From a virus, in IMG/VR virus record IMGVR_UViG_3300020048_000115, positions 6,053 to 70,052 of that record: a stretch of 64,000 nucleotides of DNA; one strand, written 5' to 3'. Positions within the stretch are counted from its first letter, which is position 1, and the number at the start of each line of letters is the position of its first letter. Made by a program: the position numbers and the translations under genes. Positions 2,816-63,305 of this stretch are shown in pieces. The notes under the pieces are model-generated. The model made no database searches, was not told the DNA's origin, and worked only from the letters and a program-made list of their open reading frames with translations.

Positions 2816-4285
2816 TTAAACTAATACTCCTATGTCAACAAATCCTGTAATCCAGTCTCGATTTATTGAGTAAACTAAACCTAGTTTACCGCTAGATAAA
2901 CCGAATCTATTCGACGTTACTTGTACTATATCGCCTAGTTGTACAAAAATTAATTCTGGTAAATATTTTGCTGTTATTATGTATCTTTGTTGTTCCCAAA
3001 GAGCTAGTCTTTTTGCAGCTTCTGTATCTGCATTAGCTGTGGTTATTAACAAAGTTGGTTCTTCTGTTACTGTTCCACTATCTCTATACAGTGTTTGTTT
3101 TGTAGTGTTTATTGCTGTAGAGTATAACCACTCAGTATCAAACTTGCTTTCTGGATTTAATCCTTCTGCGACAGTTGCCTGTATAGTATAATTTTTACAA
3201 TAAGCTAGTTTAATACTTGGCTTTACTGCGAACATTTCTGAAATAGATAGTGTATTGATTACCATATTGTTATCATTAAGATAATACTTTGGGGTTCCTG
3301 TAGGAACTTTTAACTCAACTAATCTTAATTTGCTAGTACTAACTACGTCATTGGTTACTACAATTGAGGGACATATTAAGTTCGCATTTACACTTTTAGC
3401 AATTTCAGTACAAGTTTCTAAAATATTTTTTCTATCATTACAGTATATGCCTACTGGACTTAGATTAGTAAAATCTGAAAAACTAATATCCGACAGAGAA
3501 AACTTGTTTTCTGTGGTTCCATACGTGGTTACTATTTTTGATATAATACTAGGTACAGTGCTTGTTGTTCCCTGAACACTACAAGTTATTGTTCCATAGG
3601 GCTGCGTCAATAACGCAAAAGTACCTAAAGTAGTATTTGGTGTAACTATAATAGGTACCCCATTGTCACGTACTTCAACAAAACCAGTAATAGCACCATC
3701 ATGTGCCATATATACTTGACCCGTGTTGGCGGTAGAACCATTATCTACAAGTAATGGCTGTATGTTAAAACACTCGCCAAATAATAACGGAAGTACGGTA
3801 TCTAGTGTATTTTGTGAGTACGCGGTACTAGCTAAAGTTTTTTCACTTATAGGTTCATTTAATCTTTGTAGTTTATCGAATAAACTAAAGCTTAGTGTTT
3901 GTTCACTTGGAGCAACTATTTCTTGAATTAAACCATCAAAAATTAATACAAAGTCGTCTTTAACCCAACTTGGATCTCCTAAGTATATTTTAATAGGGCG
4001 CTTGTTCCAGACATACTGTAAAAAATCGTCATAAATTCCGCTAGTATTAACTATATCTAAGCTGCCAAAGCTAATACTTGTGGTTCCTGTTATACTTAAA
4101 GATTCTGAAAAATTTAAGCCTCCAAGAATACAAGCATTATACGAAACATTATTCCCAAAATATGCTAAACTAGATAAAAAGAAGTCGGAAACTACTGTGT
4201 TTCCGACTTCTGTGATATCAGCTAGTATACACTTTAAGTGCCCCGGCGTATTAAGCCAGGTAATTACTTCGCTTACTGTTTTCAT
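2816..4285 (-). CDS. distal tail / tail-tip (baseplate hub-like) protein, 489 aa
   Basis: Lies immediately downstream of the tape measure gene and is packed tightly against the fibre gene. Assigned by position only. Confidence 0.4.
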   Translation of the reverse strand: MKTVSEVITWLNTPGHLKCILADITEVGNTVVSDFFLSSLAYFGNNVSYNACILGGLNFSESLSITGTTSISFGSLDIVNTSGIYDDFLQYVWNKRPIKIYLGDPSWVKDDFVLIFDGLIQEIVAPSEQTLSFSLFDKLQRLNEPISEKTLASTAYSQNTLDTVLPLLFGECFNIQPLLVDNGSTANTGQVYMAHDGAITGFVEVRDNGVPIIVTPNTTLGTFALLTQPYGTITCSVQGTTSTVPSIISKIVTTYGTTENKFSLSDISFSDFTNLSPVGIYCNDRKNILETCTEIAKSVNANLICPSIVVTNDVVSTSKLRLVELKVPTGTPKYYLNDNNMVINTLSISEMFAVKPSIKLAYCKNYTIQATVAEGLNPESKFDTEWLYSTAINTTKQTLYRDSGTVTEEPTLLITTANADTEAAKRLALWEQQRYIITAKYLPELIFVQLGDIVQVTSNRFGLSSGKLGLVYSINRDWITGFVDIGVLV

Positions 4286-7200
4286 TTAATATTTGCCTTA
4301 TTCTGTAAACGATTGGCCTGAATAGTTTTATCAGAACCCTCAACAACTGCTTGTGCAATTTGTTCAGTATTACGGTCAGTGGCTTTTGCATTTATTATTG
4401 CACCCTCAGCTACTGTACTTTCTAGACTATCGATTTTTTGATTGAGCTTACTAATTTGTACTAACATTTCGCGAGAATACGCGTCATTATTACCCATTTG
4501 AGTCATTAACTTAAAGTTATCGGCTGCAGGAATAATACGCTCGCCTTTATGAATTTTAGCAATCATATCATTAGGAACATAATTTGTACCTACTGCAAAA
4601 CTTTCAGTTGATACGCCCGTACCACCCAAAGTTATATATGTTTGTAATAATTCAGCAGTTGTTTTACTAGCAGTACTAATACTTTCTAAGAAACTATTTG
4701 CAGTTTCTAGTGCAGTTAGTTGTCTCTCGGAATCAGTTAATTGCTGGGTTAATGAGCTGCCTACATTATCAACTAGGGCCATTACGCTATTAAAGTCTAC
4801 AGTATACTGAGCACCGCTTGCATATAAGCCGCGAGACAGCGCCAAGAACTTATCTGTTGAAGAACTTAGCTTACTAAGTGCTGAGTTTTTTGCTTCGATT
4901 TCTTCAGGAGTAGTAGCGGTTTTAGTAATAGTAGCAGTTAATTTTTCTATTTCAGATTTAGCTAAAGCATATTGCTGTGACGCAGTTAGTGTAGAATTAG
5001 CACCAGACTGTAAAGCAAGTTTATAGTCTTGTAGACTTGTAATCTGTGTTTTTATAGTTTTAGTTACGTTTTGTAAACTAGTTTGAAGTGCTTTTGCTGC
5101 AGCAACTTGATCTTCTTTTAACCAGATTTCGCGCTGTAATGCACGATTACCTTCGTATAAAGCATCAAGTTCTAATTGACGTAAAGCTTCTTTGCTAGCA
5201 CCTAGTTGAGATAATTTTTTATCTAGTGTTTTACGTTCTTCTGCTTCTTTTACGGCTTCTGCTGTTACTGCTACAAAACCTTCTGAAACATTCATAAGTG
5301 CTTGATACGTGGCTTTTCCAGACTCAGTAGATAAATCTAAACTCTGTACAAGTGATTTAAACTCATCGCGAGTATCAACACCAGCATAACCAAGTCTAGT
5401 CATTTCTGCTGTAACAGCCTTTTGAATAGGTGCGATTTGTTCTGCTTCTGTTAAGAAGTTGGTTTTAAAGAAATCGTACTGTGCTACAAAGTTATCTAAG
5501 CCACCTGCTAATTTCGATAAGCTTTCTGTAATGTCGTATACACCTGCAACAGTTTGGTCAATACCCATATTTGTAAGTACTTGCTGAATCTTAGTATTAG
5601 TATCAACTACACGTACTACGGTAGTTAAATAACTTTCACCAAATTTCTTGTACTTGTCAAAACTAGAGAATAGTGACTTTGCAGCATCGTCTAATCTACT
5701 ACCAATTACTGCGTTTAGTTCTGCTGTGATCTGATCTCCAGTTAAGCCTTTTAAATCAATATCAATATTTGTAGCCATGTTGTTGAAAACACTTTGTACA
5801 GTTGCGGCAGTTATTCCCGCGCTAGCTCCAATTTCTATAAATAGATTTTTTGACTCTATGAATACATCACGAATTGCAGAAGTGGCTTGTGCGCTGATTT
5901 CTGCGATCTCTCTGCGACGCTCGGTCCAGTCACTATCACTACCAAACCAGCCACCATCTTCATGAAATTGTGTTACTATGTCTTTATATTGTTTAACGCT
6001 TCCTGTCGTATCATCAATAAGTTTTTGGAAACTTCCACGTAGTTGAATACCGGCACTTTCAATACTAGAACTAGCAGTAGTTCCACCACCAAATATACTA
6101 CCAAGTATTCCGCCAACTAGTGGTATGCTGCCAAAAAATCCTGCATTACTAGTAGTTCCAGTTTGGCTACCGAAACTAGTACCACCCTGACGTAGACCAG
6201 GAATAGCATAAATAGCTGTAGCTGCTCCAGTTAAAGCATCGCTTAAACCTTGTAGTGCTTTAAGCATTTTGTTATCATAAGTTAATCCTTCTACAGAATT
6301 ATCTCTGATAATTTCTAATGACTTATTAATACTATCTACTTTAGCAGAGCTATCGCCAAATACACCACCACCAGTTTCTACTTTATTGCCCATGGCATCA
6401 TAAGTAATTCCAGTACCTTGTGTTTCTTGACGCTGTTCACTATTCATGGCAAATGCTGCACTTGATTTACTTCCGCCGCCAAAAGCTGAACCTAATAGTC
6501 CTGCTACAATAGCGGCCATTGCTGCACCGGCTATAAAACCCAGTGGAAAAGGTGCAGCCAATGCCTTTGTAATTGCTTCTAGTCCCGAAGCTCCTGCACG
6601 TGCTAAAGAATTAGCAATACTGGACCCGGTTTTAGCTGTATCAAAAAACATTTCTTTGATATCCATAGCTAAACGAGCAATATGTAATCCCTTTTCTAAA
6701 GTAGCTAATGCTTTATATGCAAAGGTCTTTTCTTTGAATAGTCCCTTAGTAGCACCTACAACGCTAGCCATTCCGCTTATTTCGGCTTTAGTATTTTTTG
6801 TTTGTTGCTTAGAAATTTCATTTTCTATTAATAGTCGCTTTTTAGGGTCATCCTGCGCGTCTCTTTCAAACTCTAAGTCAGCTAGTGCTTTAGCACCTTT
6901 CTCACTAGATATAGCTATTTGTGTTAGTGCCGTAGTTAGCCCGCCAAGTTTGCTACCTAAGTCACCAAAAACATTAGTTAAACTAGTAGCTAGTTGAGTA
7001 CTATTATTTAGTAGTTCATTATAGCGCTCTTGTTCTAAGTTAATTTCTTTGGTCTTTTCTAGTAAAGCTATCTTGGAGTTATACTGCAGGCCTAGCCCTG
7101 CTATAGTATTATTATTAATTGTTTCTTGTCTAGATAACTCAGCATTTGCTGCATCAATTAATGCTTTATTCTTTTCAGCACCATCTTGTTGCAATATAGT

Positions 7201-45130: not shown

Positions 45131-45222
45131 AGCTCTATAGTTTAATGGTAAAACGGCGGATTTATATCCCGTAAGCAACAGATAATTGGTTCATCTGGGT
45201 TCGAGTCCCGGTGGAGCTACCA
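45131..45222 (+). tRNA. tRNA-like, type II scaffold with aberrant anticodon arm
   Basis: Acceptor agctcta/tggagct, D-arm gtttaatggtaaaac, T-arm ctgggTTCGAGTcccgg, CCA. The anticodon region ggcggatttatatcccgt does not fold into a canonical 7-nt loop. Confidence 0.35.
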
Positions 45223-46426: not shown

Positions 46427-46455
46427 TGTCTCTGGCTTTTTAGTTTTGTAACACA
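46427..46455 (+). terminator. intrinsic terminator
   Basis: ggccagag-cttg-tctctggc, followed by TTTTT. Confidence 0.55.
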
Positions 46456-46524
46456 GTGATAGTGTACGGCCTTCATACGGCCTAGGTCAGTAGTTCGAAT
46501 ATACCTAAAATTGCTAAATAAAAT

Positions 46525-49332: not shown

Positions 49333-49397
49333 AAATATATTGTTTAATAAATTGACTTGTATAGTTGACCCTAAACTGTTATAATTTAATCTAAATC

Positions 49398-49473
49398 GGA
49401 ACTATAGCACAGTTGGTAGTGCAGCAGATTCATATTCTGTTGGTCACAAGTTCGAGTCTTGTTAGTTCCACCA
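49398..49473 (+). tRNA. tRNA-Met (CAU), copy 1
   Basis: Acceptor ggaacta/tagttcc, loop tTCATAt, AGTTCGAGTCT, CCA. Preceded by a TGACCCTAAACTGTTATAAT element. Confidence 0.7.
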
Positions 49474-49520
49474 ATAAAAAAATTGACTTGTTTTGTAAAT
49501 CAAAACATTGTATAATTGAT

Positions 49521-49595
49521 CTTTCAGCAAAGAGAACGAGTATTCACTGAATAACTTCGATAAATATACTCTTGTTCTCTTTGCTAATTTCATAT
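49521..49595 (+). ncRNA. long imperfect hairpin RNA candidate
   Basis: TGnTATAAT at 49506-49514. agcaaagagaacgag (49527-) pairs with ctcttgttctctttgct (-49590), giving a stem of about 16 bp. No ORF. Confidence 0.3.
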
Positions 49596-49839
49596 ATAAT
49601 TGATACTTAAATTAAACGATTTAACTATAGCGACAGATGTACAGTTACTTCATAACTACTTGTACTATGATGTAACGACTCTACTACCGAATTAGTCGCG
49701 GTAGTGCAGCAATGCACTTTAATCTAAAGAGGTGGTTTAGGTAAAGCAACCACTTGAATCTAAAACTCCGGAACTGTTTTCGAACATTCTTAGTTAGATC
49801 GTTTAATTTAGGTATAGTGATAGAAACAATTACCTCAAT

Positions 49840-49930
49840 GCTAATGAAGTGGTCGTGGGTTCGAGTCCCCCCCGAGGCGAAAGCCAAGGTAGCTCAGTTG
49901 GTAGAGCACTAAAATATTTGTTTCGCATAG
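49840..49930 (+). ncRNA. circularly permuted tRNA-like element (Y-RNA/YrlA-like candidate) upstream of the Ro60-like gene
   Basis: Order is T-arm (gtgggTTCGAGTccccc), acceptor-like stem capped by a GAAA tetraloop (ccgaggc GAAA gccaagg), then a canonical D-arm (tagctcagttggtagagcac). There is no anticodon or CCA end. Lies 45 nt upstream of 49957. Confidence 0.4.
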
Positions 49931-49956
49931 TTCTTACTTATTAAAAAAGGAAATCC

Positions 49957-51267
49957 ATGTCTTCGATCAATCGCGCTGTGCGTACTCCAGTATTTAATTC
50001 TGTGGGTACGCAAGTATCCAAAATTAATGCCGAACGTCAGCTAAAGCGTATTACCCTAGCAGCCATGCTGTGGGAAAAGCAGTTTTATCTTGATGGTAAA
50101 TCTCACGCTGAATTGGTCAGAGAATTGGTAGCTAAAATTGCTCCTGAAAAGGTCGCTGCTTTAGCTTTGGAAGCCCGTACGAAATTCAAACTTCGTCATG
50201 TGCCTCTGCTGCTTGTTCGTGAACTCGCCCGCAGCGGGAAACTACAAGCTACTGCGTTAACTTCGGTTATCCAGCGTCCAGATGAAATGTCTGAGTTCTT
50301 GTCAATTTATTGGCAAGAAGGCAAAACAGCGGTATCAAACCAAGTTAAAAAAGGCTTAGCGGCTTGCTTTAATAAGTTCTCTGAATACCAGCTTGCCAAA
50401 TGGAATAAAAATAGCGCATCTATTAAACTGCGTGATGTAATGTTCCTTAGCCACCCTAAACCGCAATCAGTTGAACAAACTGAACTCTTTAAACGAGTAG
50501 CGGCTGACACACTTATTATTCCCGACACATGGGAAACACAGCTCTCAGCTGGTGCAGATAAGTGCGAAACTTTCTCCCGTCTAATGACTGAGAAAAAGTT
50601 GGGTGCACTAGCCTTTCTTCGTAACCTTCGCAATATGCGGGACAGTGGTGTGAACACTGATCTGATCCGTAGCTATGCTAGCTCGGTAGATGTTACTAAA
50701 GTTCTGCCTTTCCGATACGTGGCTGCCGCCCGCATCGTGCCAGAATTTGAAGATATGCTAGAGTCGATGATGTTCCGTAGCTTGGAATCTCACGACAAAA
50801 TCCCTGGAAAGACTGTTTTGGTAATCGACGTTAGTGGCTCAATGTTCGGTGCTCCAATCTCACAAAAATCTGATCTAGATCGCTTCGATGCGGCTGCTGC
50901 ACTTGCTATGTTGTGCCGTGAAGTTTGTGAAGAAGTCGAGATTTATAGCTTTAGTGGAGACGCTGTGCGTGTAGCACCTCGTCGTGGATTTGCTCTCCGC
51001 GAAGCAATTTCCGGCTCACAGCAACATGGCGGTACTCAACTGGGTCGTGCCATGGAAACAATCAACAAAGATACTAGCTATACTCGTTGCATTGTGTTTA
51101 CTGATGAACAAAGCTATGATCGTCCAGACGCTCCGCTTGGTAAAGGCTACGTTGTTAACGTAGCGAGCTACGAGCATGGAGTAAATCATCAGGCTTGGAC
51201 TGAGGTTAACGGGTTCAGTGAATCTGTAATCGACTATATCCAAGCACTGGAACGGGAAGCCGTTTAA
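49957..51267 (+). CDS. Ro60/Rsr-like protein (TROVE-like N-terminal domain + vWA domain), 436 aa
   Basis: C-terminal vWA domain with MIDAS VIDVSGSM. N-terminal helical region with a Ro-like QLKRITLAAMLWEKQFYLDG segment. This architecture is characteristic of Ro60 orthologs. Confidence 0.5.
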   Translation: MSSINRAVRTPVFNSVGTQVSKINAERQLKRITLAAMLWEKQFYLDGKSHAELVRELVAKIAPEKVAALALEARTKFKLRHVPLLLVRELARSGKLQATALTSVIQRPDEMSEFLSIYWQEGKTAVSNQVKKGLAACFNKFSEYQLAKWNKNSASIKLRDVMFLSHPKPQSVEQTELFKRVAADTLIIPDTWETQLSAGADKCETFSRLMTEKKLGALAFLRNLRNMRDSGVNTDLIRSYASSVDVTKVLPFRYVAAARIVPEFEDMLESMMFRSLESHDKIPGKTVLVIDVSGSMFGAPISQKSDLDRFDAAAALAMLCREVCEEVEIYSFSGDAVRVAPRRGFALREAISGSQQHGGTQLGRAMETINKDTSYTRCIVFTDEQSYDRPDAPLGKGYVVNVASYEHGVNHQAWTEVNGFSESVIDYIQALEREAV

Positions 51268-51332
51268 AATACTATTCCACGCTAACGCCGTAGTCAGCCG
51301 GCCAAATAAAGTGGTACTCTAAGTAAAGGCTT

Positions 51333-51417
51333 AGATTTGTATATGGTGCTTATAATCGTTACTTCTTGCTGATAAACGCGATTATTATTTATTCCTATAC
51401 AAATCTAAGCCTTTATT
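51333..51417 (+). terminator. large hairpin (20-bp perfect stem) downstream of the Ro60-like gene; terminator or Ro-binding stem candidate
   Basis: aaaggcttagatttgtatatgg (51333-51355) is the inverted repeat of cctatacaaatctaagccttta (51396-51417), followed by TTATTATTTT. The loop carries a nested inverted repeat. Confidence 0.45.
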
Positions 51418-51685
51418 ATTTTAAGGAAAACAATACTATGAACACAGAAGAATACTGGGAATGGATGCGTGAAAATGTCCAATGATGCTGGCAAAGGCGA
51501 TGCTCGCAGACCCTCAGGTGTATCAGCAGACCAATTTGCTGATAATTGGGATAAAATCTTTAATAAGCAATATAGAGTTCTAGAAGCCTTAGTTGCTGAA
51601 AACGAACGCCTAGAACTATACAAAGACTACGATAAAATTACTAGAAATAATACCGAAACGCAAAAAATAAAGCAATAGAACAGTG

Positions 51686-51759
51686 TCTCTCTGGTGTAAT
51701 GGCAGCACGTCGGTCTCCAAAACCGTTAGTAAGAGTTCGAGTCTCTTGGGGGATGCCAA
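51686..51759 (+). tRNA. tRNA-Trp (CCA)
   Basis: Loop cTCCAaa, T-arm aagagTTCGAGTctctt, CCA. The acceptor has three G:U pairs. Confidence 0.5.
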
Positions 51760-51989: not shown

Positions 51990-52322
51990 GATTTGTCTAG
52001 TAAGGAAAGTAAACGGAGGATGGGCAGGTTGGGATGCCTCCTGACTAGATACCTCGCCGGCTAGACGATTTATAAGGGTATAAAGTGTTCATGGACGCAC
52101 ACCACACTGTCACTGTGGAAGAGTGGGGATCGTTACCCCCTATACCCGCCAAGACCTGCCTTAGGTTCGTTTGACGTAAACGGTTATGACAAGGGTTGTT
52201 CCTGTCTGGCGTCCGGATGAATAAGACTGTGCCTCGTTAGTGCACGCTGGAGAAAGTAACCAGCACTATTATTTTAGCGTATTGTGTCAGACTTGACGAC
52301 TATGAATATGCTAAAATAATAT

Positions 52323-52401
52323 TCCGTAGAATCCGAGCTAGGCGCACGGACTTGACTGTTAATCAATGACTAGATAGGTTCGAATCCTATATACGGAGCC
52401 A
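52323..52401 (+). tRNA. tRNA-Asn (GUU)
   Basis: Stem cttga/tcaat, loop cTGTTAa, T-arm ataggTTCGAATcctat, CCA. Confidence 0.5.
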
Positions 52402-52529
52402 TGTTTTAAACTGTAGCGACTTGTAGAGTTACTTCTTTACTGTTAATAAAAACGATTGCGGTTCGATTCCACAAATGCCGCTGGTGCACGGGCAAATCTC
52501 TCTACTACTTATTCTCAGTTTATTTATTG

Positions 52530-52609: not shown

Positions 52610-52684
52610 TAGGTCTTTAGTAAAATGAATATTACACAACGCTACGAACGTTGAAGTGGGAGTTTGATTCTCTCAGGACCTACC
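52610..52684 (+). tRNA. tRNA-Arg (ACG)
   Basis: Stem caacg/cgttg, loop cTACGAa, T-arm gggagTTTGATTctctc, CCA. Confidence 0.55.
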
Positions 52685-52693
52685 ACATATATC

Positions 52694-53161
52694 ATGCAAA
52701 AATTTAATATCCAAGAAGTCAAAGACTTTATCGTTGCTCAATCTGAATCCACTAAGATTTATCTTGGCGCGGATAGCGAACGAATTAAAGTAAATGGCGT
52801 ATGGCACGCAGACTATACTCTAGCTGTGGTAATACACATTGACGGTAATCACGGATGTAAAATCTTTGGTTCAGTTAGTCGTGAACGAGACTTTGATCAA
52901 AAAGTATCTAAGCCAGCAATGCGACTAATGCAAGAAGTATACAAAGTAAGCGATCTATTTCACGAACTAAGCGATGTACTACAAGATCGTCATGTTGAAG
53001 TACACTTAGATATTAACCCAAATTTAATGTACGGTTCTAGCTGTGTTGTACAGCAGGCCATTGGTTATATCAAAGGCACTTGTAATGTAGATGCTCAGGT
53101 TAAACCTAATGCTTTCGCAGCTAGTTATGCTGCCGATCGTTTAAAGTTTATATTAGCTTAA
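52694..53161 (+). CDS. hypothetical protein (155 aa)
   Basis: In-frame start (MQKFNIQ...) of track ORF 52664..53161. The track start would overlap a tRNA. Confidence 0.45.
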   Translation: MQKFNIQEVKDFIVAQSESTKIYLGADSERIKVNGVWHADYTLAVVIHIDGNHGCKIFGSVSRERDFDQKVSKPAMRLMQEVYKVSDLFHELSDVLQDRHVEVHLDINPNLMYGSSCVVQQAIGYIKGTCNVDAQVKPNAFAASYAADRLKFILA

Positions 53162-53751: not shown

Positions 53752-53790
53752 ATATTTTAGCACACTACTTGCCACTTAACTCATATATGT

Positions 53791-53920
53791 GGAGTAGCCG
53801 TACGCACACCTTCCACGGGTAATCGGGAGCACCCGACATGGGTAGTGTGCTAAGATATGGTTGTATGAAGCCGATAGAAAAGAGTTTAAGACGCGGGTTC
53901 GACTCCCGCCAGCTCCACCA
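53791..53920 (+). tRNA. long tRNA-like element (about 130 nt) with canonical T-arm and CCA end
   Basis: T-arm gcgggTTCGACTcccgc + cagctcc + ACCA. The only 5-prime acceptor partner is ggagtag at 53791, which implies an insertion of about 55 nt or an unusual RNA. Confidence 0.3.
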
Positions 53921-54238
53921 AAAACACATTAAAGCTACTAGTCGCTGTGGGACACGTTCCCTCTTTAAGTGTAGTGTGTTTCTGAGGGGGCTGACCTGGC
54001 TTTCGATTAGGCTAAGAGTAAATACGTGGACAACTCGGCAATGCAGAAGCCGCAGGATTGAGGCACAGTGTAGTCGCTATACTCATAGTATAGAAAGACG
54101 CTCTACTCGGTCGCAAAAGCAAAACAAAAATAAACGCAAACGATAACACGTACGCTTTAGCAGCCTAAACACTGCTTAGGGTTTTCGTCGGTTCCTTGTA
54201 ACAGAATACCGACCCTAAATTAATGCAGACTGGATACT

Positions 54239-54811
54239 ATGGCAACTGATAAGCTAGACTTAGGTCTGAACTTTAATAATTCTTTTACCAAGACCACTGC
54301 ACGTCAGTATGAGTTTTATCTAAGTGGTGAAATTGTAGAAGCAACAGAATATGTAGAGTGGTTTGATACTATTCGTAGTGCACAAGCTAGTGACACAGTA
54401 ACTATTTATATTAATAGTTGTGGTGGTGATCTTTATACAGCAATCCAATTTTTACGAGTTCTAGCAGAAACTGAAGCAGAAGTAATTTGTTCAGTTGAAG
54501 GTGCTTGTATGAGTGCTGCTACTATGATCTTTTTATCAGCCGATACTTTTCAAGTAACCCCACACTCACTATTCATGTTTCACAACTACAGTGCCGGAGT
54601 ATTTGGCAAAGGTGGTGAAATGTATGACCAGCTACAGTTTGAACGAGCATGGTCAGAAGAATTTTTAAGCGAAGTATACAATAATTTTCTAACAGAAGCT
54701 GAAGTCAAAGAAATGTTGCACAACAAAGACATTTGGATGACTTCTGCACAAGTTGTAGACCGCTTAAGTAAGCTGCTAAAAGCAAGAGAAGCTGAAGCAC
54801 AAGCAAAATAA
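54239..54811 (+). CDS. ClpP-like (S14 family) serine peptidase, 190 aa
   Basis: TIYINSCGGDLY, catalytic Ser in EGACMSAAT, and His in MFHNYS. Confidence 0.6.
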   Translation: MATDKLDLGLNFNNSFTKTTARQYEFYLSGEIVEATEYVEWFDTIRSAQASDTVTIYINSCGGDLYTAIQFLRVLAETEAEVICSVEGACMSAATMIFLSADTFQVTPHSLFMFHNYSAGVFGKGGEMYDQLQFERAWSEEFLSEVYNNFLTEAEVKEMLHNKDIWMTSAQVVDRLSKLLKAREAEAQAK

Positions 54812-54931: not shown

Positions 54932-55023
54932 GGAAAGTAATGCAGCGGGGCTGGTCCTGCGACTGGCCTTGAAAACCAGGTTCTCTTAATCGGGATGGGG
55001 TTCGACTCCTCTGCTTTCCGCCA
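54932..55023 (+). tRNA. tRNA-Ser (UGA), type II
   Basis: Acceptor ggaaagt/gctttcc, loop cTTGAAa, long variable arm, GGTTCGACTCC, discriminator G, CCA. Confidence 0.6.
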
Positions 55024-61511: not shown

Positions 61512-62465
61512 ATGAACAAAATTACACAATTCTTAGACTCGGCTTCAGCGGCCTATTATGCCGGTAGTCCGTTTATCACAGACGCACAGTTTGATGCGCT
61601 TGCTGAAAGCGTAGGATACTTTGCAGTGGGCGCTAAGCAAAACTCAAAAACTGAGCGTCATCTTTATCAAATGTACTCACTGCAAAAGTTCTATGAGGAC
61701 GAAAGCAAGGCTAAGCCCTTAGCAGGTATCGCTAGTATTGCCACAAGCATTAAACTAGACGGCGCTGCATTGAGTTTGTTGTATGTTGATGGTTGCTTGG
61801 TCAGAGTACTGACTCGTGGTGATGGTACTGAAGGTCAGATTGTTACTGATAAGTTCTTGAATAATCCTATTGTACCACAAAATATCCCGTTTCACGGAGT
61901 TTATCAAATCACTGGAGAAATTGTTGCTCCAGTAAACATTGAGAATTCACGCAACTATGCTGCTGGTGCATTAAACCTAAAAGATGCAGATGAGTTCAAG
62001 ACTCGTGCCTTAAGTTTCTTTGCATACGGCATTCAGCCAAGTCTTGCTGATAAATTTAATCAAGACATGGAGTGTTTAAAACTAGCTGGCTTTGGTGTAA
62101 TCAATGAACCAGACTTGGATAAAATCTTTCCGTGTGATGGAGTTGTGTTCCGTGTCAACGACAATAAGTTGTTTTACGAAATGGGTTACACAGCCAAACA
62201 CCCGCGCGGTGCTTATGCTAAAAAAGAGCGTGCCGAACACGTCGAGACTAAGCTACTAGGAGTTGAGTGGCAAGTAGGTAAAAGTGGTAAAGTCACTCCT
62301 GTGGCTATCCTTGAGCCTGTGTTAGTTGGTGATGCTCTAGTGTCCCGAGCTACACTCAATAATCCTGGATTTATTGAAATGCTAGACCTGCAAATCGGCG
62401 ACACAGTAGCCGTTATCAGAGCCGGGGAAATTATTCCTTGCATCTTGCACAAAGTTGATGCTTGA
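61512..62465 (+). CDS. ligA: NAD-dependent DNA ligase, N-terminal part (Ia + adenylation + OB), 317 aa
   Basis: Ia-domain-like AAYYAGSPFITDAQFDAL, adenylation lysine KLDGAA, TRGDGTEGQ, and an OB-fold-like WQVGKSGKVTPVAILEPVLV. Confidence 0.7.
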   Translation: MNKITQFLDSASAAYYAGSPFITDAQFDALAESVGYFAVGAKQNSKTERHLYQMYSLQKFYEDESKAKPLAGIASIATSIKLDGAALSLLYVDGCLVRVLTRGDGTEGQIVTDKFLNNPIVPQNIPFHGVYQITGEIVAPVNIENSRNYAAGALNLKDADEFKTRALSFFAYGIQPSLADKFNQDMECLKLAGFGVINEPDLDKIFPCDGVVFRVNDNKLFYEMGYTAKHPRGAYAKKERAEHVETKLLGVEWQVGKSGKVTPVAILEPVLVGDALVSRATLNNPGFIEMLDLQIGDTVAVIRAGEIIPCILHKVDA

Positions 62466-62475
62466 GGTATGCTAA

Positions 62476-62504
62476 ATTTACACTTGTCACAGCAACCCTA
62501 ATCG
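62476..62504 (+). promoter_or_regulatory. sigma70 promoter TTGTCA-17-TATAAT inside the split ligase locus
   Basis: ttgtcacagcaaccctaatcggatataat. Confidence 0.5.
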
Positions 62505-62537
62505 GATATAATATAGTCTACAAAGTAATAAAAGAAC

Positions 62538-63305
62538 ATGAGAATCGAAATCCCAACAACCTGCCCGTGCTGTGAGTATAAATTAGAGCTGGTCAATGAC
62601 CAGCTCTTTTGTAGAAACACGGCCTGTGGTGCTCAACTTGGTAAAAAAGTCGAACACTTCTGCAAGACATTGGGCATCAAAGGTATGGGCCCAAAGTCAG
62701 TTGAAAAACTAGAACTACAAGACTTAACCGAGCTATTCTATCTTGATGTTCATACAGTTACCGAGGCTCTTGGTAGCGAAAAAACTGCGTTAAAACTGCT
62801 TGATGAAATCGAACGGGCTAAGTCCGCAGATTTGGCAACAGTGCTGGCCAGTTTCTCTATTACACTAGTAGGCAACACAGCCTCTAAAAAGATTTGTGAA
62901 GTTGTTGAACATATCAACGACATTACATACGAAACTTGTAAACAAGCTGGTCTAGGTGATAAAGTCACTGAAAATCTTATTACTTGGTTACAAACAGATT
63001 TTCAAGATTTAAAAGAGTTTCTTCCGTTCTCTTTTAAGTCTCAGAAGAATTCCAATACAAATAGTAACAATAACAATAAAACTGTTTGTATTACAGGAAA
63101 GTTATCTTCTTATAAAACTAAAGCCGAAGCCTACAAAGCATTAGAAGAGGCAGGCTATAGTCCAGTAGAGTCAGTAACTAAAACTACTGATTATCTGGTT
63201 GATGAAGAAGATAAAGCTAGTACAAAACGTAAAAAGGCCGAATCCCTTGGCATCTCAATTATCAAAAACTTAAATATTTTCTTGAAAGAAAAAACAAATG
63301 ACTGA
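62538..63305 (+). CDS. NAD-dependent DNA ligase, C-terminal part (Zn finger + HhH + BRCT), 255 aa
   Basis: CPCC ... CRNTAC zinc finger, HhH-like region, and a BRCT-like VCITGKLSSYKTKAEAYKALEEAGY. Own promoter TTGTCA-17-TATAAT at 62476-62504. Confidence 0.6.
   Translation: MRIEIPTTCPCCEYKLELVNDQLFCRNTACGAQLGKKVEHFCKTLGIKGMGPKSVEKLELQDLTELFYLDVHTVTEALGSEKTALKLLDEIERAKSADLATVLASFSITLVGNTASKKICEVVEHINDITYETCKQAGLGDKVTENLITWLQTDFQDLKEFLPFSFKSQKNSNTNSNNNNKTVCITGKLSSYKTKAEAYKALEEAGYSPVESVTKTTDYLVDEEDKASTKRKKAESLGISIIKNLNIFLKEKTND

What the first reader, a model, noticed from the sequence alone, without database searches (positions are those of the whole stretch)
49480..51420. Phage-encoded Ro60/Rsr-like protein with an adjacent circularly permuted tRNA-like RNA (Y-RNA/YrlA-like candidate) inside the tRNA island
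ORF 49957-51267 has the TROVE-like helical N-terminus plus a C-terminal vWA domain (MIDAS VIDVSGSM) that defines Ro60 orthologs. Forty-five nt upstream there is an RNA-like element with a canonical T-arm (gtgggTTCGAGTccccc), an acceptor-like stem closed by a GAAA tetraloop, and then a textbook D-arm (tagctcagttggtagagcac). There is no anticodon arm or CCA end. This is the permuted arrangement expected of a tRNA-mimicking Y RNA. Bacterial Ro orthologs are normally encoded next to Y RNAs with tRNA-like modules, and together they form RNA surveillance and degradation machines. A second long perfect stem (20 bp, 51333-51417) follows the gene. A Ro-Y RNA module inside a phage tRNA island would be a phage-borne RNA quality-control or tRNA-handling system.
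Basis: partly seen in the sequence, partly recalled or inferred. Interest (0 to 1): 0.8.

Follow-up and report, generated by a model that had tools for sequence, protein, structure and literature searches.

The report
Phage Ro60 gene with Y RNAs
A roughly 100-kb tailed phage carries a Ro60-type RNA-binding ring protein flanked by at least four small structured RNAs (one a tRNA mimic), a protein-RNA pairing already known from bacteria and several phages, so this is a divergent new example and not a new kind of system.

Summary
ORF 49957-51267 is a short (436 aa) Ro60/Rsr-type protein. It passes the Pfam TROVE and VWA_2 cut-offs and has an intact MIDAS. Its model matches only Ro60 structures, best the Ro60 of Thermus phage phiLo. 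The RNA at 49807-49942 has the YrlA layout (outer stem, internal loop, inner helix, UUAC, V, T, closed acceptor-like stem, D). Rfam YrlA scores only 35.6 bits (cut-off 69). The layout is backed by compensatory changes in 25 of 27 pairs across 23 homologues.

The same basal module recurs in the 19-bp stem after the gene (D1, 51325-51417), in a 213-nt RNA upstream (U1, 49603-49815) and between tRNA genes at 52406-52523 (E5). The module is: outer stem, U(A/G)G-YGA loop, 7-8 bp helix, UUACUUC, apical part, then GUUC(U/C). It sits beside Ro genes, always on their strand, in dozens of phage contigs and some alphaproteobacterial MAGs.

Phage Ro60 with Y RNAs is published (mycobacteriophages, 2014; phiLo, 2025). 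This is a new, divergent member of a known kind. The function, Ro-Y RNA particles engaging host PNPase, is inferred.

The parts
49487..49516 (+). Promoter-like site CTTGTTT-N17-TATAAT, upstream of hairpin H0
   Evidence: The pattern CTTGT-N19-TATAAT occurs 10 times in the window against 0.12 expected. It is conserved in relatives (by eye). Function is inferred.
49526..49585 (+). H0: conserved 18-bp hairpin between the two promoter-like sites. Its 3' strand carries the -35-like box of the next site. Role unknown.
   Evidence: MFE -23 kcal/mol, z = -6.8. Present in relatives with changed stem sequences (by eye).
49571..49600 (+). Promoter-like site CTTGTTC-N17-TATAAT. It would start transcription at the foot of U1.
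   Evidence: The TATAAT lies at a fixed 2-3 nt from the invariant ATACTTAAATTAAA in 11 relatives.
49603..49815 (+). U1: large Y-like RNA. It has a 25-bp outer stem, UAGCGA, an irregular inner helix, GUUACUUC, an apical domain of about 120 nt without a T arm, then CUGUUUUCGAACAUUCU.
   Evidence: MFE -63.6 kcal/mol, z = -5.5. In the alignment of 11 orthologues, 27 consensus pairs are predicted, 8 of them with compensatory changes. The family model R1 does not detect it, so membership rests on the motifs and on synteny.
49807..49942 (+). U2: YrlA-like tRNA-mimic Y RNA in the Ro 5' leader. V arm about 49833-49849, T arm 49855-49871, closed acceptor-like stem 49872-49889, D arm 49890-49909.
   Evidence: Rfam YrlA 35.6 bits, below the cut-off of 69. 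Family model R1 34.2 bits, E 6.4e-7, and U2 was not in the seed. In 23 homologues 25 of 27 pairs have compensatory changes and 90% of cells are paired, against 37-53% when partners are slid.
49957..51267 (+). Ro60/Rsr-type protein (TROVE ring plus vWA with MIDAS), 436 aa
   Evidence: Pfam, PHROGs and NCBIfam scans. PDB sequence match to phiLo Ro60. MIDAS residues D291, S293, S295 and D383 are invariant and T360 nearly so in 22 homologues. Model and fold search.
51277..51314 (+). D0: small nested hairpin (CCAC...GUGG around a 4-bp stem) with the conserved loop GUAGYCAGYC, just after the stop codon. Role unknown.
   Evidence: Three of the four inner pairs show compensatory changes. The loop is nearly invariant in 16 relatives.
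51325..51417 (+). D1: minimal Y-like RNA. It has a 19-bp perfect outer stem, UGGUG, an inner helix and GUUACUUC in a short loop, and is followed by a U-rich tract.
   Evidence: z = -8.9. RNAalifold on 16 orthologues gives compensatory changes in 19 of 32 pairs. R1 scores 62 bits, but D1 is a seed member.
52406..52523 (+). E5: fourth Y-like RNA, between tRNA-Asp and tRNA-Gln. It has the same basal module. Its apical part holds a possible anticodon-like arm (loop CUGUUAA), a T arm and a hairpin with loop CUGGUGCA.
   Evidence: R1 43 bits, E 2e-9, not in the seed. In 11 orthologues 19 of 23 pairs have compensatory changes. The anticodon-like arm is read by eye and was not predicted by RNAalifold.

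Best explanation
This is a phage-borne Ro60-Y RNA locus. The gene at 49957-51267 encodes a compact Ro60 orthologue: a ring of helical repeats closed by a vWA domain with a metal site. It is flanked on the same strand by at least four small RNA genes (U1, U2, D1, E5).

All four share one basal module: an outer stem, a bulged U, an internal loop carrying (C/U)GA(A), a 7-8 bp inner helix, and UUAC. This is the stem-bulge-stem layout that Ro60 proteins bind in Y RNAs. The RNAs differ in the part that projects from the module. In U2 it is a permuted tRNA-like domain (T arm, closed acceptor-like stem, D arm), as in bacterial YrlA.

Most likely course of events:
1. U1, U2 and the Ro mRNA are transcribed from the promoter-like site at 49571-49600.
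2. The RNAs are released or protected by their long terminal duplexes.
3. Each RNA binds the phage Ro protein through the basal module.
4. The particles engage host 3'-to-5' exoribonuclease (PNPase). They either restrain it or redirect it to structured or misfolded RNA during infection, when the phage expresses about two dozen tRNAs and a tmRNA.

Shown here: protein family and fold, RNA architecture and its conservation, and linkage of the RNA module to Ro genes. Inferred, not shown: transcription and processing, Ro-RNA binding, the PNPase link, and any benefit to the phage.
For: Protein:
- Pfam TROVE 36.4 bits (cut-off 23) and VWA_2 30.5 (cut-off 27); PHROG 850 'RNA-binding protein' at 7e-40.
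- phmmer against PDB: phiLo Ro60, E 1.4e-22, residues 39-432.
- Model pLDDT 82.4. Foldseek top 13 hits are all Ro60: 9kop TM 0.75, 1yvp 0.69, 2nvo 0.69.
- MIDAS residues are conserved.

RNA:
- YrlA full-model match directly upstream on the same strand.
- Covariation in the T, acceptor-like, D, inner and outer helices. The covariation score is 0.78 against 0.10-0.26 for slid controls, and 0 of 500 shuffles reach it.
- A model built from 32 minimal elements finds U2 and E5, which it had never seen, at E 6e-7 and 2e-9.
- One pair was never used to select the elements. The second base of U(A/G)G covaries with the last base of GUUC(U/C): A-U 74, G-C 43, other 19.

Linkage to Ro:
- Motif-only scans of viral contigs brought in 24 further loci carrying a Ro homologue of 26-83% identity (three repeat contigs already fetched).
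- Most of these 24 loci also hold elements with a matching 3' partner, up to 7 per locus.
- All 44 model hits in 21 Ro loci lie on the Ro strand, including loci from alphaproteobacterial MAGs.

Precedent:
- YrlA lies next to Ro60 in 254 bacteria and 22 phages (PMC4201824).
- phiLo Ro60 binds two upstream Y-like RNAs and host PNPase and slows PNPase (PMC12135203).
Against: - No expression or binding data exist for this phage.
- U2 scores about half of Rfam's YrlA cut-off, as do all relatives tested in this Ro clade (30-50 bits).
- The window's U2 copy is imperfect. It has a U.C mismatch in the T stem, two mismatches in the acceptor-like stem, and UUACCUC in place of UUACUUC.
- Its folding energy is no better than that of shuffled sequence.
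- Close relatives lack U2 altogether (L008, L009, L011) or keep only its stem (L012), so it is dispensable.
- U1 is not recognised by the family model.
- The experimentally bound Y-like RNAs of phiLo do not match the model.
- NCBIfam's Rsr equivalog model gives only 19 bits against a cut-off of 900. The protein is a distant relative of bacterial Rsr, not an equivalent of it.
- The elements used for family statistics were chosen partly by their pairing. The helix counts for the inner and outer stems are therefore biased upward. The T, acceptor-like and D arms and the A/G-U/C pair are not affected.
Confidence: 0.75

Rival explanations
1. The structured elements are cis-acting parts of the Ro transcript, not trans-acting Y RNAs. 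U2 would be a leader that lets Ro protein control its own translation. D1 would be the terminator or a 3' stabiliser. The long duplexes would be RNase III processing sites.
For: U2's 3' strand ends a few bases before the ribosome-binding site. D1 is a very stable hairpin followed by UUUAUUAUUUU. U1's 3' strand and U2's outer stem share the bases UUUAGGUA, so the two folds compete. The perfect duplexes of 19 and 25 bp are long enough for RNase III; that last point rests on general knowledge.
Against: The same module occurs away from any Ro coding sequence: E5 lies 1.1 kb downstream between tRNA genes. It also occurs in tandem arrays of up to 7, which a leader or terminator role does not explain. 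In relatives D1 is followed directly by another element, not by a U tract. The two roles do not exclude each other.
Confidence: 0.15
2. The tRNA-like element U2 is a decaying remnant of a tRNA gene or of a once functional Y RNA. It would be carried along in the tRNA island with no present function in this phage.
For: Mismatches in the T and acceptor-like stems and a changed UUAC context are specific to the window copy. Its model scores are lower than those of relatives: 34 bits against 53 for L020. Close relatives have lost the element or swapped its module. Folding energy is at the level of shuffled sequence.
Against: The permuted order T, closed stem, D inside a Y stem is not what a decayed tRNA gives. 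That order is kept, with compensatory changes, across Ro genes sharing only 26-62% identity with the window's. The D arm and T loop of the window copy keep the conserved tRNA-like bases. Four of five T-stem pairs and all four D-stem pairs are intact.
Confidence: 0.07
3. The protein is a Ro-fold vWA protein used for something other than Y RNA biology, for example counter-defence by sequestering a host factor through its MIDAS site. The neighbouring RNAs would be unrelated tRNA-island elements.
For: The role of the MIDAS site in Ro60 is unknown (PMC12135203). The protein is far from bacterial Rsr in sequence. Ralstonia phage RsoM2USA has a 53% identical protein with no detectable element nearby.
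Against: The RNA module and the Ro gene are tightly linked, always on the same strand, in phages and MAGs. phiLo provides a direct experimental precedent.
Confidence: 0.03

Closest known systems
YrlA (Rfam RF02553), the tRNA-mimic Y RNA next to bacterial Ro60/Rsr; also reported in 22 phages, mostly mycobacteriophages (Chen et al. 2014, PMC4201824)
   Same: It lies on the Ro strand within 4 kb. It has the same order of parts: terminal stem, internal loop with a (C/U)GAA-type motif, inner helix, YUAY, V arm, T arm, closed acceptor-like stem, D arm. T and D loop bases are tRNA-like. Several copies per locus also occur in bacteria.
   Different: It scores 35.6 bits against a cut-off of 69. The motif GNCGAA(N)G is replaced by UAG(C/U)GA. 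There are conserved 3' GUUC(U/C) and GUUACUUC boxes. In this phage the tRNA-like RNA lies in the Ro 5' leader.
Ro60 of Thermus phage phiLo with Yrl1 and Yrl2 (PDB 9KOP, 9L5Y; Hu et al. 2025, PMC12135203)
   Same: It is the closest solved relative of the protein (E 1.4e-22; TM 0.75). It is phage-encoded, with Y-like RNAs directly upstream on the same strand. Those RNAs have a stem-bulge-stem with a CGAA-type motif; the phiLo leader even reads UAUAGCGAAAC.
   Different: Identity is only about 23%. The protein here is 436 aa against 500. The phiLo RNAs have no tRNA-like domain and do not match the family model built here. The phiLo gene is not in a tRNA island in the stretch examined.
Rsr-Y RNA-PNPase machine (RYPER) of Deinococcus radiodurans, and the Salmonella rsr-yrlBA-rtcBA operon
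   Same: A Ro ring plus Y RNAs encoded side by side. One RNA has a tRNA-like module and one or more shorter RNAs lack it, as with YrlA and YrlB.
   Different: No PNPase, RtcB or RtcA gene was seen among the window proteins scanned. The exoribonuclease would have to come from the host. NCBIfam's Rsr model is not met.
Ro-like proteins annotated in isolated phages (crAss001 and other Bacteroides phages; Xanthomonas, Rhizobium, Caulobacter, Brevundimonas and Streptomyces phages)
   Same: 89 phage records hold a homologue of 24-53% identity. Caulobacter phage CcrPW has three sub-threshold YrlA matches and four matches to the family model R1 upstream of its Ro gene.
   Different: None is closer than 53%, and the window's phage has no near relative among isolated phages. 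In the records read here the RNAs are not annotated.

Membership tests
Ro60 / Rsr (TROVE-vWA RNA-binding ring) | TROVE (HEAT-repeat) domain detectable by profile | tested here: met
   Pfam PF05731 scores 36.4 bits against a cut-off of 23, though its best stretch covers only residues 186-266. phmmer to phiLo Ro60 spans residues 39-432.
Ro60 / Rsr (TROVE-vWA RNA-binding ring) | Overall ring fold closed by a C-terminal vWA domain | tested here: met
   AF2 model pLDDT 82.4, pTM 0.73. The top 13 Foldseek PDB hits are all Ro60, with TM 0.55-0.75 over the whole length. Ring closure itself was not measured on the model.
Ro60 / Rsr (TROVE-vWA RNA-binding ring) | MIDAS motif DxSxS...T...D in the vWA domain | tested here: met
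   D291, S293, S295 and D383 are invariant and T360 is at least 90% conserved in 22 homologues that share 27-63% identity with the window protein. VWA_2 scores 30.5 bits against 27. The specific vWA_Ro60 model gives 23 bits against 27.7 and is not met.
Ro60 / Rsr (TROVE-vWA RNA-binding ring) | Equivalence to bacterial Rsr (NCBIfam NF041674) | tested here: not met
   19.2 bits against a cut-off of 900. The protein is a distant branch of the family, not an Rsr equivalog.
Ro60 / Rsr (TROVE-vWA RNA-binding ring) | Binds Y RNA and misfolded RNA; associates with PNPase | not testable with these tools
   Only genetic linkage to Y-like RNAs is available.
YrlA (Rfam RF02553) | Encoded within 4 kb of the Ro gene on the same strand | tested here: met
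   U2 ends 15 nt before the Ro start codon, on the + strand.
YrlA (Rfam RF02553) | Curated Rfam gathering score | tested here: not met
   35.6 bits against 69. Relatives in this Ro clade reach 30-50 bits.
YrlA (Rfam RF02553) | T, acceptor-like and D stem-loops in that order, with tRNA-like loop bases | tested here: met
   Sequence reading. Across 23 homologues the T arm is 94% paired, the acceptor-like stem 83% and the D stem 99%, and 14 of these 16 pairs have compensatory changes.
YrlA (Rfam RF02553) | GNCGAA(N0-1)G motif near the 5' end (proposed Ro contact) | tested here: not met
   The window's U2 reads UAGUGAUAG. The family consensus is UAG(C/U)GA(A). Only some members contain CGAA. It is a related but different motif at the same place in the architecture.
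YrlA (Rfam RF02553) | Conserved YUAY at the start of the V loop | tested here: met
   UUAC follows the inner helix directly. The U, A and C at alignment columns 27-29 are invariant in the 23-sequence alignment.
YrlA (Rfam RF02553) | tRNA-type modifications; recognition by TruB, DusA, RNase P | not testable with these tools
   This needs RNA from infected cells.

The most novel reading that the evidence does not exclude
The RNAs around this Ro gene may belong to a Y RNA class that has not been described and that current Rfam thresholds miss. It would have a fixed Ro-docking module (outer stem, U(A/G)G-YGA loop, inner helix, GUUACUUC, 3' GUUC(U/C)) onto which phages graft interchangeable tRNA-derived heads. 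The heads seen are: T, closed stem, D; anticodon-like arm plus T arm; fully permuted tRNAs with an anticodon arm (L013 4574-4702); and unpermuted D, anticodon, T (L225, L024). If each head recruits or decoys a different tRNA-handling enzyme or anticodon nuclease, the locus would be a programmable adaptor set linking host tRNA enzymes or defences to Ro and an exoribonuclease.
Probability: 0.15. Interest if true: 0.75.

Novelty: new member of a known kind. Interest (0 to 1): 0.4.

Why it matters
Ro60-Y RNA particles are well defined structurally but poorly understood functionally, and what they do for a virus is open. This locus adds a compact Ro protein with four co-encoded RNAs that share one docking module and carry different heads. 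It belongs to a large uncultured phage group, with thousands of close protein relatives in metagenomes. That gives a natural series for asking two questions: which part of a Y RNA binds Ro, and what the tRNA-like part is for. The results also show that Rfam's YrlA threshold misses a whole clade of Ro-linked RNAs. The model built here could be used to annotate them.

Tried and rejected
About a tenth of the loci held a real element next to a Ro gene, so the scans are a sample, not a census.
- The family model R1 did not detect U1, even with filters off. It found nothing in the Thermus phage phiLo locus or near the Ro gene of Ralstonia phage RsoM2USA.
- Single-sequence folding of U2 and E5 gave z-scores near 0 and cannot be used as support.
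- Rfam matches to microRNA families over the hairpins H0 and D1 were set aside as generic long-hairpin matches far below their cut-offs.
- A promoter for U2 alone (TATAGT at 49813-49818) was considered and dropped. Its -35 region is not conserved, and the conserved bases there are the 3' strand of U1's stem.
- D1 as a plain intrinsic terminator was not called by the scan.
- The supplementary tables of Chen et al. 2014 and the 2020 Annual Review on bacterial Ro60 are not held. I could not check which phages and which RNA variants were already listed.
- A second protein search with a profile returned mostly the same close clade.
Full report
**1. What is at the coordinates**

The window comes from a tailed phage. 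It encodes a major tail protein, a portal, a large terminase, a head protease-capsid fusion and a 2272-aa ORF. From about 42.5 kb to 57.3 kb it carries 23 ARAGORN tRNA genes and a permuted tmRNA.

ORF 49957-51267 (+, 436 aa) lies between tRNA-Met (49398-49473) and tRNA-Trp (51685-51758).
- T arm GUGGG-UUCGAGU-CCCCC at 49855-49871.
- A stem closed by GAAA at 49872-49889.
- D arm at 49890-49909.
- A perfect 19-bp duplex pairing 51325-51343 with 51399-51417.

The T stem has one U.C mismatch. The GAAA-closed stem has only five standard pairs out of seven.

**2. The protein**

Profile and sequence evidence:
- Pfam gives TROVE 36.4 bits (cut-off 23) and VWA_2 30.5 (cut-off 27).
- The Ro-specific vWA model falls just short (23 against 27.7).
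- PHROG 850 'RNA-binding protein' matches end to end at 7e-40.
- NCBIfam's Rsr equivalog gives only 19 bits against a cut-off of 900, so this is not a close equivalent of bacterial Rsr.
- Against PDB sequences, the only real hit is the Ro60 of Thermus phage phiLo (9KOP, 9L5Y; E 1.4e-22; residues 39-432 against 50-484).

Structure evidence:
- An AlphaFold model built from 25 sequences has mean pLDDT 82.4 and pTM 0.73.
- Its 13 best Foldseek matches in the PDB are all Ro60 proteins: phiLo TM 0.75, Xenopus 0.69, Deinococcus Rsr 0.69, human 0.55.
- In 22 homologues sharing 27-63% identity with the window protein, the MIDAS residues D291, S293, S295 and D383 are invariant and T360 is nearly so.

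The protein is a compact, divergent Ro60 orthologue.

**3. The tRNA-like RNA (U2)**

Rfam's YrlA model aligns over its whole length to 49823-49927, with E 1.2e-4 in a 16-kb search and 1.6e-5 in a 2.2-kb search. The score of 35.6 bits is half the curated cut-off of 69. The alignment deletes the model's second helix. Folded alone, the RNA is no more stable than shuffled sequence.

The case therefore rests on comparison. Nineteen related viral contigs were fetched through the protein. In most of them the Ro start codon is preceded by the frame UAUAGUGAAAGAAACAGUUACUUC ... CUGUUUCGCCUAGUUCUUACUUAUU.

I aligned 23 such RNAs, including some from Ro genes only 26-62% identical to this one. RNAalifold predicted an outer stem, an inner helix, a T arm, a 7-bp closed stem and a D stem. 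Of the 27 pairs, 25 show compensatory changes. Further measures:
- 90% of cells are paired, against 37-53% when partners are slid by 1-3 columns.
- The covariation score is 0.78 against 0.10-0.26 for the slid controls.
- No shuffle in 500 reaches the observed values.

The inner and outer stems were partly used to pick the sequences. The T, closed-stem and D helices were not.

The layout is the one Chen et al. described for YrlA (PMC4201824): terminal stem, internal loop, inner helix, YUAY (here UUAC), V arm, T, closed acceptor-like stem, D. Their GNCGAA(N)G motif is replaced here by UAG(C/U)GA.

**4. More than one RNA**

The boxes GUUACUUC and GUUC(U/C) recur around every Ro gene of the clade. 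The shared basal module reads, 5' to 3':
- outer stem
- a bulged U
- (A/G)G
- YGA(A)
- a 7-8 bp helix (GA...G pairing with C...UC)
- UUACUUC
- the apical part
- the return strand of the helix
- G plus 3-5 bases
- GUUC(U/C)
- the return strand of the outer stem

One pair was never used for selection. The second base of U(A/G)G covaries with the last base of GUUC(U/C). In 136 distinct elements the counts are A-U 74, G-C 43 and other 19.

A covariance model built from 32 short elements finds three places in the whole window, all on the + strand:
- D1 at 51336-51403: 62 bits, a seed member.
- E5 at 52406-52523: 43 bits, E 2e-9.
- U2 at 49807-49942: 34 bits, E 6e-7.

In 16 orthologues, 19 of 32 pairs in D0 plus D1 carry compensatory changes.

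E5 lies between tRNA-Asp and tRNA-Gln. Eleven orthologues support its helices, with 19 of 23 pairs compensatory. Its head holds a T arm, a hairpin with the loop CUGGUGCA and, by eye, an anticodon-like arm with the loop CUGUUAA.

U1 (49603-49815) has a 25-bp outer stem (z = -5.5), the 5' box UAGCGA...ACAGUUACUUC and the 3' box CUGUUUUCGAACAUUCU. The model misses it. Eleven orthologues keep the stem, with compensatory changes in its inner part. Its apical domain of about 120 nt differs between relatives and matches no Rfam family.

**5. Linkage to Ro genes**

Two scans of viral contigs used only the 5' boxes. Even so, 24 of the roughly 240 loci fetched carried a Ro homologue (26-83% identity). 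Three of these 24 repeat contigs already fetched through the protein. Most of the 24 also hold elements with a matching 3' partner, up to 7 in one locus. Only three loci with two or more elements lacked a detectable Ro gene.

The model gave 44 hits in 21 Ro-bearing loci, every one on the Ro strand. This includes loci from Bradyrhizobium and other alphaproteobacterial MAGs whose Ro is about 50% identical.

In this clade the YrlA model never reaches its cut-off, scoring 30-50 bits.

Heads are varied:
- T, closed stem, D.
- Anticodon-like arm plus T.
- A fully permuted tRNA with an anticodon arm (L013 4574-4702).
- Unpermuted D, anticodon, T (L225, L024).
- No head at all.

Close relatives of the window have lost U2 (L008, L009, L011) or keep only its stem (L012).

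**6. Expression signals (inferred)**

The pattern CTTGT-N19-TATAAT occurs ten times in the window against 0.12 expected. Three of these lie at 49356, 49487 and 49571. The last ends three bases before the foot of U1. U1, U2 and Ro are therefore probably one transcription unit.

U1's 3' strand and U2's outer stem share the bases UUUAGGUA, so the two folds compete. U2's 3' strand ends just before the ribosome-binding site. D1 is followed by a U-rich tract. These points allow cis roles in processing, autoregulation or termination alongside a trans role.

**7. How it most likely works**

By homology, the RNAs dock on the Ro ring through the stem-bulge-stem module. The particle then engages a host 3'-to-5' exoribonuclease. 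Two precedents support this:
- In Deinococcus and Salmonella, Y RNA tethers Rsr to PNPase (PMC4201824, citing Chen et al. 2013).
- For phage phiLo, Ro60 binds two upstream Y-like RNAs and host PNPase, and the complex cuts PNPase activity by about 70-75% (PMC12135203).

No PNPase, RtcB or RtcA gene was seen among the window proteins I scanned, so the nuclease would come from the host. I cannot tell whether this phage restrains decay, redirects it to misfolded tRNA or tmRNA, or uses the tRNA-like heads as decoys.

**8. Comparison and novelty**

Phage Ro60 is well known:
- 89 records of isolated phages hold a homologue, many annotated as TROVE or Ro-like.
- YrlA was reported in 22 phages in 2014.
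- A phage Ro60-Y RNA-PNPase complex was characterised in 2025.

The finding is therefore a new and divergent member of a known kind. The possibly new parts are the distinct docking-module consensus, the fact that Rfam's threshold misses the clade, and the range of heads. I could not check these against the 2014 supplementary tables, which are not held.

**9. Verdict**

The identity of the protein and of the RNA class is secure. The mechanism is inferred. Interest is moderate.

Noticed in passing
window 53781-54259 and 54239-54811: A permuted (two-piece) tmRNA: Rfam tmRNA_permuted 114 bits, beta_tmRNA 102 bits, tag ANDNTYALAA. It is followed directly, with overlap, by an ORF with a Clp protease domain. 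A phage carrying both the tagging RNA and a ClpP-like protease is worth a look. The betaproteobacterial type of tmRNA may hint at the host.
   Followed up: partly
window 52322-52397: A possible tRNA-Asn(GUU) that ARAGORN and Rfam do not call. It has a 6-bp acceptor stem plus a G.A pair, an anticodon loop CUGUUAA, a normal T arm and a 3' GCCA. Asn is otherwise missing from the phage's tRNA set. The same anticodon-like loop occurs in the neighbouring Y-like RNA E5.
   Followed up: partly
window 46442-46513 and 54932-55019: Two tRNA-like matches in Rfam (tRNA 34.6 bits; tRNA-Sec model 32 bits) that ARAGORN does not list. The tRNA-Ile(TAT) call at 45131-45222 is unusually long at 92 nt.
   Followed up: no
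window 51277-51321: The hairpin D0 has a nearly invariant loop GUAGYCAGYC. It is followed by the invariant GCUCUAAG, which repeats the 3' strand of D1's outer stem. That repeat could pair with D1's 5' strand (UCUAAG.../...CUUAGA) as an alternative fold. Two relatives (L007, L011) carry two such hairpins.
   Followed up: partly
window 49526-49585: A conserved 18-bp hairpin (H0) lies between two promoter-like sites. Its 3' strand supplies the -35-like box of the second site. The first site contains an inverted repeat (UGUUUUG...CAAAACA) that changes in step in relatives.
   Followed up: partly
window, 10 sites including 27944, 32449(-), 34129(-), 39031(-), 39909(-), 61475, 62483: CTTGT-N19-TATAAT occurs 10 times against 0.12 expected. 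It is probably this phage's early or middle promoter consensus.
   Followed up: partly
window 52664-53161: An ORF with the RNaseH_like domain PF04308 (64 bits) sits inside the tRNA island, just after tRNA-Arg. It is conserved at this place on a second contig that carries the same Ro protein (L261).
   Followed up: no
window 51439-51678: A 15-codon ORF (MNTEEYWEWMRENVQ) overlaps the start of a 69-aa ORF. The pair is conserved after the Ro locus in relatives such as L004.
   Followed up: no
window 61512-63305: An NAD-dependent DNA ligase appears split into two ORFs: adenylation plus OB fold at 61512-62465, and a BRCT-containing ORF at 62538-63305. Each is preceded by the promoter-like motif.
   Followed up: no
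L001 (Caulobacter phage CcrPW, MH588545.1) 3235-4429: Four matches to the family model R1 (five by the motif script) and three sub-threshold YrlA matches lie upstream of an unannotated 'hypothetical protein' that is a Ro homologue (41% identity). The RNAs are not annotated in the GenBank record.
   Followed up: partly
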